25,155 bases of DNA from assembly GCA_034667685.1 (NCBI GenBank), contig JAXDQU010000075.1, forward strand, positions 1 to 25,155, in the 5' to 3' direction. Position 1 is the first letter of the stretch; each line of letters begins with the position of its first letter. This document shows, one piece after another, positions 7,788-10,826 of this stretch. Below the pieces are notes generated by a model that was given only the letters and a program-made list of their open reading frames with translations, did no database searches and was not told the DNA's origin. Both the position numbers and the translations under genes were made by a program. This DNA comes from Thermoplasmata archaeon (GTDB lineage Archaea > Thermoplasmatota > SW-10-69-26 > JACQPN01 > JAJPHT01).

Positions 7788-9422
7788 CTACATCGGCTTG
7801 CCGGAGCCCTTGTTCGTGCTCCGGTCAATGACCACGTCGACCACCGACGCCTTGCGCGACGCGAACGCGCGCTCGATGGCGGGCGCGACCTCCTTCGGCT
7901 CCGTCACTCGCTCGCCGTGCCCGCCGCACGCGAGGGCGATCTGGTCGTAGCGCACCTTCTGCGAGAGGCCGGTGGCGACTGCCCTGTCCTCGCCGTAGAA
8001 CGTGAGTTGCGGGTCGCGGATCTGGTTCCATGCGCCGTCGTTGGCGACCACGACCGTGACCGCGATGCCCTGGCGCGCGCAGCTCTCGATCTCCATCCCG
8101 TTGAGGCCGAACGCGCCGTCGCCCGAGAGCACGAGCACCTTCTTGGCCGGGTGGACGAGCTTGGCGGCCATCGCGAAGGGGAGGCCGACGCCCAGCGTGC
8201 CGTACGGGCCGGGGTCGAGCCAGTGGCCGGGTTGGCCGATCTCCAGCACCTTGCCCGCGAGCGCGACGATGTTGCCCCCGTCGCCGATGACCAGCGTGCT
8301 CTCGTCGATCGCGTCGTTGAAGCCCTTGAGCATGGCCAGCGCGTGCATCGGGTCGCCGCCTTCGGCCATCGTCGCGGCGTTCTCGGCCACCTTCTTCTCG
8401 TCGTGCGCGCGCAGCTTCGCCATCCAGCCCGCGCGGTCCGGCATCGGGCGGCCGCGCACGAGCGCGTGCAGGTCGCGCAGCGCGAGGCCGACGTTGCCCA
8501 CGAGGCCGACCTCCACGGGGCGGCGACCCAGCGCGGCGGCGGTCGTGTCCACGTGGACGACCTGCGCGTCGGGGTTCACGCCCTCGCCGAAGTTCATGCG
8601 GAAGTCGAAGGGCGTCGCGAAGTCGAGGATGACGTCGGCCTCCGCGAGCGCCTTGCCGCGCGAGTGGACGAGGAAGCGCGGGTGGCCGCGGGGCAGCATG
8701 CCGCGCGCCAGTCCGTTGAGGTAGAAGGGCGCCTCGTAGGCGTCCGCGAAGGCCCGCAGCGCGTTCTCGCCGTGCCCCCACCAGACGCCGGCGCCCGCGA
8801 GCACGACCGGGCGCTCGGCGCGTGATAGCAGATCGGCCGCGCGGCGCAGGTCCACCTCGTCGGGGCGGACGTGGAACGGCACGCGCTGGCGGCCCGCGGG
8901 GTACGTGGGCTCGGGCGCCTCGGCGAAGAGGATGTCCCAGGGCACTTCCAGGAACGCGGGGCCGGTGCGCGGGCTCGTGGCCTCGCGGAACGCGGTGTGG
9001 ACGTGGTCTTGGAGGAGCCGAGTCTCGAAGCACGACGCGGTCCACTTGCACAGCGGCGCGAGCACGGGCGCCTGCGGCCCCTCCTGGAGCGCGCCCTGGC
9101 CGAAGCGCACGAAGTCGCTCTGGCCGCCGATGACGACCACCGGCGAGTCGGCCGCGCGCGCGTTGGCGACGCCGGTCACGCCGTTCATGACGCCGGGGCC
9201 CGCGGTGACGGCCGCGACGCCCGGGTTGCGCGTGAGGCGCGAGACCGCGTCGGCGGCCATGACGGCGGCCTGCTCGTGGCGCACGTCCACGACGCGGATG
9301 CCCTCGTCGAGGCACCCTTCGTAGATCGGCATGATGTGGCCGCCGCAGAGCGTGAAGAGGTGCGTCACGCCCTCGTCCTTGAGCGCGCGGGCGACCTGCT
9401 TGCCGCCGTGCATGTCTGCCAT
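7788..9422 (-). CDS. Thiamine diphosphate-dependent enzyme, acetolactate synthase-like (ILVBL/2-hydroxyacyl-CoA lyase-like)
   Basis: FTLCGGHI, DVRHEQAA, TAGPG, WLDPGPYGTLGVG, and ThDP motif GDGAFG...NDGAW. Confidence 0.9.
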   Translation of the reverse strand: MADMHGGKQVARALKDEGVTHLFTLCGGHIMPIYEGCLDEGIRVVDVRHEQAAVMAADAVSRLTRNPGVAAVTAGPGVMNGVTGVANARAADSPVVVIGGQSDFVRFGQGALQEGPQAPVLAPLCKWTASCFETRLLQDHVHTAFREATSPRTGPAFLEVPWDILFAEAPEPTYPAGRQRVPFHVRPDEVDLRRAADLLSRAERPVVLAGAGVWWGHGENALRAFADAYEAPFYLNGLARGMLPRGHPRFLVHSRGKALAEADVILDFATPFDFRMNFGEGVNPDAQVVHVDTTAAALGRRPVEVGLVGNVGLALRDLHALVRGRPMPDRAGWMAKLRAHDEKKVAENAATMAEGGDPMHALAMLKGFNDAIDESTLVIGDGGNIVALAGKVLEIGQPGHWLDPGPYGTLGVGLPFAMAAKLVHPAKKVLVLSGDGAFGLNGMEIESCARQGIAVTVVVANDGAWNQIRDPQLTFYGEDRAVATGLSQKVRYDQIALACGGHGERVTEPKEVAPAIERAFASRKASVVDVVIDRSTNKGSGKPM

Positions 9423-9467
9423 GCGTGGTCGAGCGGCCCGCGTTGGCTAAGCCCTTTTCCCTGCGCG

Positions 9468-9525
9468 TCCAGCCGCGGAGGACGAGAAAACCGCCTCCGT
9501 GACCTCCGTGTCCTCCGTGGCTGGA
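9468..9525. repeat. Periodic palindrome, 9-bp unit CCTCCGTGN (copy 2)
   Basis: tccagccgcggagga...cctccgtga cctccgtgt cctccgtgg ctgga. Same orientation as the copy at 7700-7768. Confidence 0.85.
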
Positions 9526-9573
9526 AGCGCGTGAGGACAACATTCACAAGCGCGCGCCCGCGTGCCCGACCAC

Positions 9574-9774
9574 GTGAACGTCGCCGACGCCAAAGGCCTC
9601 ACCTTCGAGTGCCAGCCCGGCTGCGGCTCCGCTGCGGCTGGCGTACCAGCCGGCAATACGCCCTACGCGCCCCGCTCCGCGCCGCAAGCGGCGCTTCGGG
9701 GGCGATAAGCCTGTCCGGTGGGAACGTCCAGGACGCGCGCGGACTCACCTTCGAGTGCCAGCCCGGCTGCGGCT
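9574..9774 (+). other. Duplicated gene 5' end: 31-bp exact direct repeats (9598-9628, 9744-9774) bounding a 115-bp unique insert
   Basis: ctcaccttcgagtgccagcccggctgcggct occurs twice, 146 bp apart. Copy 1 reads GTG-NVADAKGLTFECQPGCG and ends at TAA 9706-9708. Copy 2 reads GGG-NVQDARGLTFECQPGCGFCC and continues into the full gene. Confidence 0.85.
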
Positions 9775-10826
9775 TCTGCTGTACCGCGACGCCGCTGGTG
9801 CTGCCGCACGAGGCGGGGCCGCTGGGGCCGCTCGTCGTGCGCGCGGAGGACGGCACGCTCCGCATCCCGATGACGGGACCGGCGTGCGGCGCGCTGCGGG
9901 CGGATCGGGCGTGCGGCGTCTACGAGGTCCGGCCCAGCGTGTGCCACCTCTACCCCTACCAGGTCCACGCGGGGCGGCGCATCCAGGCGACGGTGAGCCT
10001 GGGCTGCCCCGGAATCGCGGAGGCGCACGCGCTCCACCCCGCGCAGGCGCACCCGTTCGGCGTGGACAAGCGCGCGGAGGACGGGGCCACGCGCGCCATC
10101 GCGCTGGCGCTCGCGCAGCCGGGCGCGCAGGAGCAGGCCGCGCGGGCGAAGCAGACGTTCGTCGAGTTCGACCGCCGCATGAAGGAGTGGGGCGTGCACG
10201 CGACGTCCGACAAGCTGCGCAGCGCGTTCGTGCCGCGCCTGGAGAGCTTCGCGCGGCCCGAGCTGCTCCCCGCGCTCTTCGCCGGCCTCTCCGAAGGCGA
10301 CCTCCTGCTCGACGATCCGGGCGCCGTCGCCGCGCTCTTCGAGACGGAGCCGCAGGCCGACCTCGAGGACCTGCTCGTGGAGGGCGCGGCCGATGCGTTC
10401 GACGAGCCGGACACGGTGATCTGGGTCGAGGCCGACCATGCGTGGACGCAGGCGCGGGCCGAGGCGGGCGAGGTCGTGCTGACGCGCACGCCGGGCGGCG
10501 AGCGCCGTCTCGCGGTGGATGCGCTCCCCACGGCCTGGACCGACGAGGCGCGCGACGCGCTCGCCGCCTACCTCGCGCGGCTCTGCGGGCGCGACCAGAC
10601 CGAAGGAGCGGCGGCGTGGCTCGTCGACGCCTCGGGCTATCAGGCGACGCTTCCCGCCGCGTACGCGCGCGTGCTGGGCGAGGCCTCGCTCCAGGTCGCG
10701 CTGCGCGCCGGCCTCCTCGCGGCGGAGGAGGGCGCGCCGGAGATCACGCTTGCGCTGGCCCGCCGCGGGGTCGCGGCCTACGAGACGAGCTATCATTCTC
10801 TCCCCACGCTGGGGGCCATCCTGTGA
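9711..10826 (+). CDS. YkgJ-family (CxxCxxCC) cysteine-cluster protein; start disrupted/uncertain
   Basis: FECQPGCGFCC, CGALRADRACGVYEVRPSVCHLYPY, CPGI. No in-frame ATG/GTG just before the first motif (CTG at 9711 is the nearest option). The original start is probably GTG 9574, in another frame. Confidence 0.75.
   Translation: MSGGNVQDARGLTFECQPGCGFCCTATPLVLPHEAGPLGPLVVRAEDGTLRIPMTGPACGALRADRACGVYEVRPSVCHLYPYQVHAGRRIQATVSLGCPGIAEAHALHPAQAHPFGVDKRAEDGATRAIALALAQPGAQEQAARAKQTFVEFDRRMKEWGVHATSDKLRSAFVPRLESFARPELLPALFAGLSEGDLLLDDPGAVAALFETEPQADLEDLLVEGAADAFDEPDTVIWVEADHAWTQARAEAGEVVLTRTPGGERRLAVDALPTAWTDEARDALAAYLARLCGRDQTEGAAAWLVDASGYQATLPAAYARVLGEASLQVALRAGLLAAEEGAPEITLALARRGVAAYETSYHSLPTLGAIL

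What the first reader, a model, noticed from the sequence alone, without database searches (positions are those of the whole stretch)
9574..9774. YkgJ gene split by an attL/attR-like 146-bp insertion carrying a diverged replacement 5' end
Seen: exact 31-bp direct repeats. Upstream of them the two copies encode the same peptide with different codons (GTG AAC GTC GCC GAC GCC AAA GGC versus GGG AAC GTC CAG GAC GCG CGC GGA), so this is not a fresh tandem duplication. Copy 1 has the promoter-like ATTCACAAG and the GTG start but stops after 44 codons. Copy 2 is in frame with the gene but has no canonical start. Removing 146 bp between the repeats restores a clean gene, MNVADAKGLTFECQPGCGFCC. The insert is structured (ggctgg-cgta-ccagcc; gcgccg-caag-cggcgc inside cgcccc...ggggcg). 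Inference: the scar of an integrative element that targets a protein gene and supplies a new N-terminus, or an excision/splicing-controlled switch.
Basis: partly seen in the sequence, partly recalled or inferred. Interest (0 to 1): 0.7.

Follow-up and report, generated by a model that had tools for sequence, protein, structure and literature searches.

The report
Hairpin element carrying spare gene start
The 146 extra bases inside this archaeal gene are one copy of a small, folded, non-coding repeat that arrived together with a foreign-looking second copy of the gene's first codons, a pattern that recurs at gene and tRNA ends across this genome and points to a poorly known way for DNA to move.

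Summary
In detail: an exact 31-nt direct repeat (9598-9628 / 9744-9774) lies inside a 53-nt imperfect one, 146 nt apart. The DNA between is a 77-nt two-hairpin non-coding repeat, here called E (9635-9711). It has 13 copies in this soil archaeon and 12 in one congener.

Eight of 8 orthologous loci lack the insert and show one gene start, MNVADAKGLTFECQPGCGFCC. One is a near-identical strain in another soil sample.

Fifteen of 24 E copies are flanked by 18-109-nt direct duplications. These are not fresh target duplications:
- They always begin at a gene terminus.
- The gene body is always on E's 3' side (14 of 14).
- The two copies differ almost only synonymously (30 codons against 2 at eight other loci), with different stop codons at 4 of 6 gene ends.
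- Three E copies are identical although one pair of flanks differs at 12 of 63 sites.

Best reading (about 0.5): a unit of E, spacer and a homeologous gene terminus integrated at the homologous gene. This stranded the native start as a 44-codon ORF and left the CxxCxxCC gene without an adjacent in-frame start.

The enzymology is unknown. This scan noted the same kind of element before on other archaeal and CPR DNA. I did not find it in print.

The parts
9574..9634 (+). H_L: the displaced native start of the CxxCxxCC gene (GTG 9574-9576 plus about 19 codons). It abuts the 5' end of the element and its last about 6 nt are frayed (TCCGCTG where the gene has TTCTGCTG).
   Evidence: Identical over 9555-9597 to the empty-site contig of run X3. 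Same peptide as the orthologs of G003 and L075.
9574..9708 (+). Residual 44-codon ORF: the native start read into the element and closed by the TAA inside the element's GATAAGCC tail.
   Evidence: No Pfam match for the ORF listed from 9562.
9598..9628 (+). Exact 31-nt repeat, copy 1.
9635..9711 (+). Element E: a 77-nt non-coding repeat running from CGGCTGG to GATAAGCC. It has 13 copies in this genome and 12 in congener G003.
   Evidence: No Rfam family matches.
9635..9652 (+). Hairpin 1 (CGGCTGG-CGTA-CCAGCCG), which forms the fixed 5' boundary of the element.
   Evidence: all 7 pairs are formed in 23 of 23 aligned copies. Two pairs show changes on both sides (GC 15 / CG 8; GC 22 / AU 1).
9668..9704 (+). 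Hairpin 2: outer stem CGCCCC/GGGGCG around an inner stem GCGCCG-CAAG-CGGCGC.
   Evidence: all 7 inner pairs are formed in the 17 of 17 copies that have this stem. Two pairs are flipped (GC 6 / CG 11; CG 5 / GC 12). The outer stem is formed in 22-23 of 23 copies.
9712..9721 (+). Spacer F (TGTCCGGTGG) between the element and the second gene-start copy. It holds the out-of-frame GTG at 9718.
9722..9781 (+). H_R: the element-linked copy of the gene start. Its first 22 nt differ from H_L at 8 sites (NVQDARG). It then runs seamlessly into the gene body.
9744..9774 (+). Exact 31-nt repeat, copy 2.
9720..10826 (+). Body of the YkgJ-family (CxxCxxCC) gene: 368 codons with no canonical start next to it.
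   Evidence: Pfam PF03692, E = 1.2e-7, residues 12-81. In-frame starts listed.
9609..9611 (+). The nearest upstream in-frame canonical start (GTG), inside H_L. Using it would add 37 residues read through the element.
   Evidence: Its use is an inference and is not shown.

Best explanation
SHOWN. The 146 bp consist of three pieces:
- one copy of a small, non-coding, two-hairpin repeat element (E, 77 nt);
- a 10-nt spacer;
- a second, foreign-looking (homeologous) copy of the first roughly 20 codons of the CxxCxxCC gene.
Relatives and a near-identical strain have the uninterrupted gene.

SHOWN. Across two genomes, E copies that carry flanking duplications share one architecture: native gene-terminus copy, then E's fixed 5' hairpin end, then E, then a variable 3' extension, then the element-linked gene-terminus copy, then the gene body. 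The two terminus copies encode the same peptide with different codons.

INFERRED. The mobile unit is E plus spacer plus the terminus of the gene that E lay beside in another lineage. It integrated at the homologous gene of this lineage in two ways. On the gene side it joined by recombination inside the conserved 31-nt stretch, which gives a seamless junction. On the other side it joined by an imprecise, non-homologous joint exactly at the foot of E's 5' hairpin, which gives a frayed junction. Formally this equals either Campbell-type integration of a small circle of E, spacer and gene terminus, or homology-facilitated illegitimate recombination of a hairpin-capped fragment.

CONSEQUENCE (read from the sequence). 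The native GTG start now opens a 44-codon ORF that ends at a TAA inside E. The gene body has no adjacent in-frame start. It is therefore either freshly inactivated or translated from GTG 9609 through the element.

UNKNOWN. The enzyme, the form of the intermediate and the donor lineage.
For: 1. Multi-copy element. 13 copies in the own genome (nhmmer) and 12 in congener G003. Both hairpins are kept by compensatory changes.

2. Empty sites. G003, G001 and G004, four metagenome orthologs (4 of 4), and one X3 contig that joins 9597 to 9744. That contig has 0 mismatches on 9555-9597 and 2 on 9744-9802.

3. Flank duplications. Present in 8 of 12 own copies (control maximum 17.5, n = 132) and 7 of 12 G003 copies (control maximum 13, n = 132). 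Both copies map to one place in the other genome for 5 of 7 G003 loci.

4. The duplications are not fresh target duplications:
- Differences fall in one codon phase at 25 of 29 sites.
- 30 differing codons are synonymous against 2 non-synonymous at eight other loci.
- Stop codons differ at 4 of 6 gene 3' ends.
- The C88 copies encode the same 20-residue tail with 9 synonymous codon differences, including Ser AGC versus TCG. Each copy resembles a different species: G004 matches H_L at 8 discordant sites and H_R at 1, while G001 matches H_R at 7 and H_L at 2.
- The E copies at C68, C41 and C88 are identical (79/79), although the C88 flanks differ at 12 of 63 sites.

5. Every duplication starts at a gene terminus: 6 stop codons, 4 start codons and 4 tRNA 3' ends. 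That is 14 of 15; L027 is unclassified.

6. The gene body lies on E's 3' side in 14 of 14.

7. The element-linked copy is the atypical one:
- In the window H_L equals the empty-site strain and the congeners, while 8 of the first 22 nt of H_R differ.
- In C111 the outgroups side with H_L at 4-5 of 7 discordant sites.
- The third positions of H_R are A/T where H_L has G/C 14 times, against 3 the other way. This is my own count on the list printed.

8. The window's E is closest to a G003 copy (73/77) and not to own-genome copies (at most 72/79). Its inner-stem variant occurs in no other own-genome copy.

9. The spacers share motifs among copies (the M2 module; GGCCGAGG; TGTCC), so the 3' end of the unit is variable while the 5' end is fixed.
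Against: - No donor state was found. No lineage has E resident beside the ykgJ-like gene, and no E lies at the orthologous loci of the C88 and C111 genes in five relatives. An NVQDARG-type native gene was not found among 8 orthologs.
- No enzyme candidate was found. Reverse transcriptase 0 of 5 genomes. Y1 HUH transposase 0 of 5. The single DDE transposase gene has no E-like ends. Tyrosine recombinases are not on E contigs.
- The homologous side would need recombination over short or diverged stretches. The longest identical run in the C88 pair is about 17 nt.
- The element-linked start in the window is itself defective. Where the orthologs read GTG AAC, it reads GTG GG AAC, which is out of frame. 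A working replacement start was therefore not delivered, or it has since been lost.
- All genomes are metagenome bins. No single read or contig spans both repeats.
- The codon-phase and polarity counts pool related loci from only two genomes.
Confidence: 0.5

Rival explanations
1. True transposition with long, variable target-site duplications, as IS1634 and IS1549 make. Ordinary allelic recombination with diverged lineases later replaced one flank up to the element, so the two copies now look homeologous.
For: - The flanks are single-copy at empty sites.
- Duplication length varies from 18 to 109 nt.
- Several G003 duplications are identical or nearly so: L028 32/32, L030 18/18, L025 51/52.
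- In L027 the sequence beyond both copies is still weakly alike and matches G000.
- Long variable direct repeats are on record for IS1634 and IS1549, at 8-514 bp and with no model proposed (PMC2266710, passages read).
Against: - It does not predict the gene body on E's 3' side in 14 of 14 cases.
- It does not predict duplications that begin within 0-9 nt of a start or stop codon in 10 of 10 protein-gene cases.
- It does not predict a spacer between E and the right-hand copy in 14 of 15 cases.
- E copies are identical (79/79) where the flanks differ at 12 of 63 sites.
- No transposase with E-like ends was found.
Confidence: 0.2
2. E was already resident beside the gene terminus, so the copy on E's 3' side is native. 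A foreign fragment carrying the other copy of the gene end plus its outer flank was then joined illegitimately at E's 5' hairpin.
For: - Copies without duplication sit 7-59 nt from the stop of a convergent gene on their 3' side: C35, C31, C110, L032 and L035.
- The DNA beyond the left copy is often not collinear with relatives: 0.6-1.1 kb of extra DNA at L031 and L028, and other contigs at L029 and C88.
- The junction between H_L and E is frayed.
Against: - In the window the near-identical empty-site strain matches both the left side (43/43) and the gene body (57/59), so the odd piece is the 22 nt next to E and not the left side.
- At L031 the outer flank of the left copy is the one alike to G000.
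- H_R carries the atypical A/T-ending codons (my count).
- Synteny between the two species is fragmented every few kb anyway.
Confidence: 0.12
3. A gene-less miniature integrative element (CIME-like) moved in trans by a tyrosine integrase, with the duplicated gene terminus serving as its att site. This follows the pattern of e14 or phage 21 in icd and of tRNA-targeting islands.
For: - Gene-terminus duplication with synonymous differences is the hallmark of e14/icd (PMC13626634, passages read).
- The four tRNA duplications run from the T-loop or anticodon loop to the 3' end. I recall that as typical of integrase att sites.
- Tyrosine recombinase genes exist in G000 (5) and G003 (3).
Against: - One element family sits at at least 15 different targets, and identical E copies (79/79) lie at tRNA-Thr, tRNA-Leu and a protein gene.
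- The junction falls at the outer foot of the palindrome, not in a core overlap.
- No integrase lies on any E contig.
- G002 has 7 recombinase matches and no E. G001 has none and no E.
Confidence: 0.07
4. Assembly artefact: two strains' versions of the gene start were stitched together across a repeat in a metagenome bin.
For: - The genome is a 124-contig bin, and the two copies look like alleles of different lineages.
- No single contig spans both repeats.
Against: - The junctions H_L-E and E-H_R each stand in Logan contigs of two runs, at the same depth as the flanks, and no alternative path is reported there.
- An H_L-E junction cannot arise from strains that lack it.
- The same architecture recurs at 15 loci in two bins from different studies.
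Confidence: 0.04
5. A programmed switch: the 146 nt are removed at the DNA or RNA level to turn the gene on.
For: Exact 31-nt direct repeats would allow precise deletion, restoring MNVADAKGLTFECQPGCGFCC. An empty-site form exists in another sample.
Against: - No deleted junction appears in the two runs that hold this genome, although contigs do drop rare variants.
- The same architecture at tRNA ends and gene 3' ends leaves those genes intact, so nothing there needs switching.
- No intron-like or ribozyme family matches.
Confidence: 0.03

Closest known systems
Integrative elements that replace the end of the gene they enter (e14 and phage 21 in icd of E. coli; tRNA-targeting islands)
   Same: After insertion the live gene ends in an element-borne copy. 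The displaced native end remains as a fragment on the other side. The two copies differ mainly at silent positions. For e14, PMC13626634 (passages read) describes icd extending into e14, an icdC fragment beyond it, and synonymous changes on excision.
   Different: Those are kilobase elements with their own integrase and one fixed target. Here the element is 77-120 nt and non-coding, with at least 15 different targets in two genomes and no linked integrase. The junction is at a hairpin foot and is frayed.
[quoted passage not shown] 2000, recalled; Furuta et al. 2010, PMC2853133, passages read)
   Same: The insert is flanked by direct repeats of tens to hundreds of bp that are single in the empty-site genome. 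No transposase is involved and the mechanism is unknown.
   Different: That phenomenon was described for restriction-modification gene units in bacteria, with nearly identical repeats (for example 44/46 and 47/47). That paper's screen retained no archaeal case. Here the insert is a tiny hairpin repeat, the repeats are homeologous, they are tied to gene termini, and they show a fixed polarity.
IS1634 / IS1549 (IS1634 family), which make long variable-length direct repeats
   Same: Variable duplication length, given there as 8-514 bp. The family is said to be common in Euryarchaeota (PMC2266710, passages read).
   Different: Those are 1.5-2 kb elements with a DDE transposase and terminal inverted repeats. 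E has only a 5-nt terminal inverted match. The one DDE gene of this genome has no E-like ends.
MITEs, REP/REPIN and BIME repeats
   Same: Small, non-coding, multi-copy, hairpin-forming and mostly between genes.
   Different: E has no short fixed target duplication, no real terminal inverted repeats, no RAYT/Y1 gene (0 of 5 genomes) and no matching autonomous element.
Homology-facilitated illegitimate recombination (HFIR)
   Same: One end of an incoming fragment is integrated by homology and the other by an illegitimate joint (PMC3240628, abstract seen in the search listing). That matches the seamless gene-side junction and the frayed hairpin-side junction here.
   Different: HFIR is a laboratory-defined route in competent bacteria, with no special element at the illegitimate end. 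Here the illegitimate end is always the foot of the same hairpin. No experiment was done.

Membership tests
YkgJ / CxxCxxCC family (Pfam PF03692), for the interrupted gene | Match to the family profile above its cut-off, with the CxxCxxCC motif | tested here: met
   32.7 bits against a cut-off of 23, E = 1.2e-7, residues 12-81 of the 368-residue product. ECQPGCGFCC is present in H_R plus the gene body. In the 44-codon ORF it is broken to ECQPGCGSAA.
MITE | Terminal inverted repeats matching those of an autonomous IS | tested here: not met
   Only CGGCT/AGCCG (5 nt) match at the ends. The one DDE_Tnp_1 gene (G000:C118) shows no E-like ends. nhmmer finds no E halves separated by a gene.
MITE | Short target-site duplication of fixed length | tested here: not met
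   Flank duplications are 18-109 nt, of variable length, and absent in 9 of 24 copies.
MITE | Small, non-coding and multi-copy | tested here: met
   60-80 nt (127 nt with a nested insert). 13 copies here plus 12 in G003.
REP / REPIN with RAYT | A Y1 (HUH) RAYT transposase gene in the genome | tested here: not met
   PF01797: 0 of 5 genomes of the genus. The control search found it in 6 of 14 control genomes.
IS1634-type elements with long variable direct repeats | A DDE transposase carried between the element's ends | tested here: not met
   E is non-coding.
IS1634-type elements with long variable direct repeats | Long direct repeats that are copies of the target made at insertion, and so identical at first | tested here: not met
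   E copies are identical (79/79) while the C88 flanks differ at 12 of 63 sites. 30 synonymous against 2 non-synonymous codon differences. Stop codons differ at 4 of 6 gene ends.
Integrase-borne gene-end-replacing integrative elements (e14/icd type) and their gene-less remnants (CIMEs; name recalled) | Duplicated gene terminus whose two copies differ at silent sites | tested here: met
Integrase-borne gene-end-replacing integrative elements (e14/icd type) and their gene-less remnants (CIMEs; name recalled) | One specific target per element family, and a cognate integrase | tested here: not met
   At least 15 different targets, including tRNA-Thr, Leu, Ser and His and 10 protein genes. No recombinase gene lies on an E contig, and recombinase presence does not track E.
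Insertion with long target duplication (Furuta et al. 2010) | Flanking direct repeat longer than 30 bp that is single in an empty-site genome, with no other mobile gene | tested here: met
   In the window: 53-59 nt, with 8 of 8 empty sites. Eleven of the 15 duplications are longer than 30 nt.
Non-LTR retroposon-like (SINE-like) element | A reverse transcriptase available in the genome | tested here: not met
   PF00078: 0 of 5 genomes. The control search found it in 3 of 14 control genomes. The fixed end and variably truncated other end do fit.
Homology-facilitated illegitimate recombination | Integration shown to depend on a one-sided homologous anchor | not testable with these tools
   Only the junction anatomy fits: seamless on the gene side and frayed at the hairpin side.

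The most novel reading that the evidence does not exclude
A so far undescribed class of very small mobile DNA in archaea (and, by this scan's earlier notes, in CPR bacteria). A hairpin-capped non-coding element travels between lineages together with the end of the gene it sits beside. It uses that gene end as a homing arm to integrate at the same gene of a new host. It therefore needs no site-specific enzyme of its own, and it leaves a homeologous spare gene end as its footprint. The hairpin foot would define the non-homologous joint, either as a nuclease-resistant end or as a nick site.
Probability: 0.35. Interest if true: 0.85.

Novelty: new variant of a known kind. Interest (0 to 1): 0.72.

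Why it matters
If the reading holds, three things follow.

1. Some direct repeats around small prokaryotic repeats are read as target-site duplications. They would instead be records of DNA exchange between lineages. That changes how such repeats should be used to infer transposition mechanisms.

2. Gene and tRNA ends would be entry points for foreign DNA without an integrase. The footprints would give a way to measure inter-species recombination in uncultivated archaea.

3. Annotation is affected. In this window the insertion strands the real start codon. It creates a spurious 44-codon ORF and leaves a 368-codon gene with no adjacent start. Gene callers will probably extend or truncate that gene wrongly.

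The same architecture at other inserts of this genome, and in this scan's earlier notes on other phyla, suggests the phenomenon is general. It is testable by transformation experiments in model archaea.

Tried and rejected
- Rfam: no credible family on 9400-9900. The best match was a microRNA model at E = 0.025, far under its cut-off.
- Viral contigs: 0 matches to the E 5' pattern.
- Species-representative genomes: 26 pattern matches, but full-length E only in the record that is G003. The rest are hairpin-only chance matches.
- Autonomous partner or enzyme: RT 0/5, Y1 0/5, one DDE gene without E-like ends, tyrosine recombinases not linked to E.
- Third copies of any duplicated segment, which would make the extra DNA an att-flanked island: none on the contigs or 10-kb loci.
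- Idea that E caps a 10-kb foreign island at the tRNA-His locus of C105: not supported. The genes of that stretch have homologs at other places in G003, so it is a rearrangement.
- Consistent microhomology at the H_L-E junction: seen in the window (GCTGCGGCT) but not at other loci, by eye.
- RNA-derived (processed) origin of the duplicated ends: the tRNA copies carry no CCA, and the two classes of gene ends would need opposite element strands.
- A paralog as source of the diverged copy: the only paralog is 29% identical.
- A second element family shared by the C72 and C84 inserts: not supported by BLAST.
- Expression: no RNA holder listed among 24 runs.
- Donor state: no E at orthologous loci of the C88 and C111 genes in five relatives.
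- X4 contig 30 (9722-9835, 13 other letters) could be either type of gene start. The tables do not let me decide.
- In print: four searches found no paper describing small hairpin repeats flanked by homeologous gene-end duplications. Only listings and the passages cited elsewhere in this report were seen.
Full report
WHAT IS THERE

Positions 9576-9628 and 9722-9774 are a 53-nt direct repeat (85% identical). Its last 31 nt are exact (9598-9628 = 9744-9774) and the spacing is 146 nt.

Copy 1 begins right after a GTG at 9574 and is read for 44 codons to a TAA at 9706-9708.

Copy 2 is in frame with a 368-codon gene body (9720-10826). That body matches the CxxCxxCC / YkgJ family (PF03692, E = 1.2e-7). 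It has no adjacent start. The GTG at 9718 is out of frame. The nearest in-frame canonical starts are GTG 9609 and 9531 upstream, and GTG 9798 downstream of the first Cys cluster.

The peptides are close but not identical: NVADAKG... against NVQDARG..., with 2 silent and 2 non-silent codon differences.

The organism is an archaeon. TBP genes are present, and the control search found that family only in the four archaeal control genomes. Its DNA is 71% G+C. Earlier notes of this scan call it a soil Thermoplasmata. I did not test that label.

THE INSERT IS A REPEAT ELEMENT

The core of the 146 nt (9635-9711) recurs in the same genome. nhmmer finds 13 copies: 10 full-length, one with a 48-nt nested insert, one with an internal deletion, and one cut by a contig end. 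I call it E.

E starts with a 7-bp hairpin (CGGCTGG-CGTA-CCAGCCG). A second, composite hairpin follows. E ends in GATAAGCC.

Both hairpins are kept by compensatory changes:
- Hairpin 1: all 7 pairs are formed in 23 of 23 aligned copies, and two pairs change on both sides.
- Inner stem of hairpin 2: formed in 17 of 17 copies that have it, and two pairs are flipped. The window's own variant is among these.

No Rfam family matches.

Among 41 genomes of the lineage, E was found in this one and in one congener, G003 (12 matches). A third genome gave one 27-nt weak match. A pattern scan of all species-representative genomes gave full-length copies only in the record that is G003. A scan of viral contigs gave none.

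IT IS AN INSERTION, AND A RECENT ONE

Eight of 8 orthologous loci have one copy of the gene start and no E:
- congeners G003, G001 and G004;
- four metagenome contigs, 63-74% identical in protein (L075 is nearly the G003 sequence);
- one contig of a soil run from another study (X3). It joins 9597 to 9744, with no mismatch on 9555-9597 and two on 9744-9802.

G003 reads GTG AAC GTC GCG GAC GCC AAG GGG CTC ACC..., that is MNVADAKGL.... Copy 1 is therefore the native start, and copy 2 is the odd one.

In the two runs that hold this genome, independently built contigs reproduce both junctions (9599-9666 and 9637-9773) at the depth of the flanks. They show no deleted junction and no indel in the G run at 9718-9722. 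These are contigs, so rare variants would be missed. No single contig spans both repeats.

THE FLANKING DUPLICATION IS A FAMILY TRAIT

I aligned the 150 nt left of each copy with the 150 nt right of it.
- Eight of 12 own copies show direct duplications far above mismatched controls (control maximum 17.5, n = 132).
- Seven of 12 G003 copies do the same (control maximum 13, n = 132).
- The duplications are 18-109 nt long.
- For 5 of the 7 G003 loci, both copies map to a single place in this genome.
- No third copy exists nearby.

So far this looks like a transposon making long target duplications. That behaviour is on record for IS1634 and IS1549 (PMC2266710) and for restriction-modification units (PMC2853133).

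BUT THE DUPLICATES ARE NOT FRESH TARGET COPIES

Four results say so.

1. Silent differences.
- Differences between the two copies sit in one codon phase at 25 of 29 sites.
- At eight other protein-gene loci, 30 differing codons are silent and 2 are not.
- At C88 both copies encode ...GGYERVHLPDPYSTESPL* with nine silent codon differences, including Ser AGC against TCG.
- At the 12 discordant C88 sites, one copy resembles the G004 ortholog (8 to 1) and the other resembles the G001 ortholog (7 to 2).

2. Gene termini. Every duplication begins at a gene terminus:
- within -2 to +9 nt of a stop codon at six gene 3' ends;
- within -4 to +8 nt of a start codon at four 5' ends;
- at the 3' ends of tRNA-Thr, Leu, Ser and His.
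At four of the six 3' ends the two copies use different stop codons.

3. Age mismatch. The E copies at C68, C41 and C88 are identical (79/79), although the C88 flanks differ at 12 of 63 sites. The difference therefore existed when that copy was laid down.

4. Fixed polarity. The rest of the gene lies on E's 3' side in 14 of 14 classifiable cases.
- The copy on the 5' side abuts the foot of hairpin 1 within 0-8 nt, often with small mismatches or indels.
- The copy on the 3' side is separated from GATAAGCC by a spacer of 0-41 nt whose sequences share motifs among copies (a 36-nt module M2; GGCCGAGG; TGTCC).
- That copy runs seamlessly into the gene.

WHICH COPY IS FOREIGN

In the window:
- The copy on E's 5' side (H_L) equals the empty-site strain and resembles all congeners.
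- The first 22 nt of the copy next to E's 3' end (H_R) differ at 8 sites. The following 31 nt and the next 28 nt are identical or nearly identical to the empty-site strain.
- A junction therefore lies inside or just after the conserved 31 nt.

At other loci:
- At C111 the outgroups side with the 5'-side copy at 4-5 of 7 discordant sites.
- At L031 the outer flank of the 5'-side copy is the one alike to this genome.
- At silent third positions the 3'-side copy has A/T where the other has G/C 14 times, against 3 the other way. This is my count on the list. It is unusual for a genome with third-position G+C near 0.9.

The window's E is also closest to a G003 copy (73/77), against at most 72/79 for own-genome copies. 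Its inner-stem variant occurs in no other own-genome copy.

I therefore read the inserted unit as E plus spacer plus a gene terminus from another lineage.

HOW IT MOST LIKELY WORKS (INFERENCE)

In some lineage E lies in the intergenic DNA beside a gene terminus. The copies without duplication do this: a convergent gene's stop lies 7-59 nt from their 3' end.

A segment with a fixed end at the foot of hairpin 1 and a variable end 18-109 nt inside the neighbouring gene reaches another lineage. It integrates at the homologous gene. The gene side joins by homology. The hairpin side joins by an imprecise joint.

This can be written in two ways. One is Campbell-type integration of a small circle. The other is homology-facilitated illegitimate recombination (abstract of PMC3240628, seen in the listing).

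It reproduces the anatomy of e14 in icd (PMC13626634). It does so with no integrase, and with one element family at many targets.

WEAK POINTS

- No donor state was found.
- No enzyme was found: RT 0 of 5, Y1 0 of 5, the single DDE gene has no E-like ends, and tyrosine recombinases are not linked to E.
- Homology on the gene side is short or diverged at some loci.
- All genomes are metagenome bins.
- The main rival is true long target duplication followed by allelic replacement of one flank. It explains the nearly identical G003 duplications and L027. It does not explain the polarity, the terminus rule or the spacers.

CONSEQUENCE FOR THE GENE

The native start now heads a 44-codon chimeric ORF closed by E's TAA. 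The element-linked start region reads GTG GG AAC where orthologs read GTG AAC, so it is out of frame.

The gene is either a fresh pseudogene or is translated from GTG 9609 through the element, with 37 added residues. Neither is shown. No RNA run was listed. Precise deletion between the 31-nt repeats would restore the gene, but I saw no sign of it in the source runs.

WIDER CONTEXT

- Other inserts in this genome show the same footprint. Examples are a 161-nt duplication with 7 of 7 differences in one codon phase at C72, and a 135-nt duplication with 19 of 24 in one phase at C84. Several duplications start or end at stop codons and carry Ser codon-family switches.
- This scan's earlier notes describe the same kind of thing in DPANN, Micrarchaeota, Methanocaldococcus, Altiarchaeum and CPR bacteria. 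Those notes are unchecked leads.
- Four literature searches found no description of it.

VERDICT

It is wrong about the agent: this is not an integrase scar and not a switch.

The finding is one member of an apparently undescribed class of tiny hairpin elements tied to homeologous gene-end duplications. Interest 0.72.

Noticed in passing
window 9463-9530: A 21-nt-arm palindrome (90% complementary) built of CCTCCGTG-like units lies between the divergent promoter region and the gene start. Contig depth there jumps to 182x and 386x, against about 6-11x for the flanks, in the two source runs. It is therefore a very high-copy repeat in that soil community. G003 lacks it at this locus.
   Followed up: partly
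own genome C72:14778-15187, C84:15569-15950, C13:12681-12910, C79:66420-66590, C76:7073-7320, C84:8765-8905, C12:59749-59880, C54:61738-62050: Further small structured inserts that are not element E are flanked by 33-161-nt direct duplications. The differences fall in one codon phase (7 of 7 at C72; 19 of 24 at C84). Several duplications begin or end at stop codons and carry Ser (AGC/AGT against TCG) or Leu codon-family switches. The footprint is therefore not tied to E's sequence.
   Followed up: partly
own genome C105:20626-20780 and G003 locus L030:398-600: At the tRNA-His 3' end, E lies in opposite orientations in the two species. In G000 its 5' hairpin abuts the intact tRNA with no duplication. 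About 10 kb follow whose genes sit elsewhere in G003. In G003, E's 3' side faces the tRNA, with an 18-nt duplication.
   Followed up: partly
own genome C110:8445-8573 and G003 locus L032:489-551: E plus a second 36-nt module (M2) sits at orthologous places in both species, just past the stop of a convergent gene and without duplication. The G000 copy carries a 48-nt nested hairpin insert. This shows the family is at least as old as the two species.
   Followed up: no
own genome C111:18835-19150: Here the duplicated unit includes the last 26 nt of E as well as the last 33 codons of a lipoyl/biotinyl-type gene. A 5'-truncated E, then a gene end, then a full E, then the gene end again lie in tandem.
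   Followed up: partly
own genome C8:82749-83822: Four TBP-domain matches lie in tandem, probably two adjacent TBP genes. In G003 an E copy sits at the 3' end of the ortholog.
   Followed up: no
locus L042-L067 titles: The congener that shares E (G003) is deposited under a title calling it a Proteobacteria bacterium, although it groups in the same genus as this TBP-bearing archaeon. The deposited label is probably wrong.
   Followed up: no
own genome C118:43104-44480: A single 458-residue DDE_Tnp_1 transposase gene with a SWIM-like Cys/His stretch. One such gene was also found in G002, G003 and G004. No inverted ends were recognised.
   Followed up: partly
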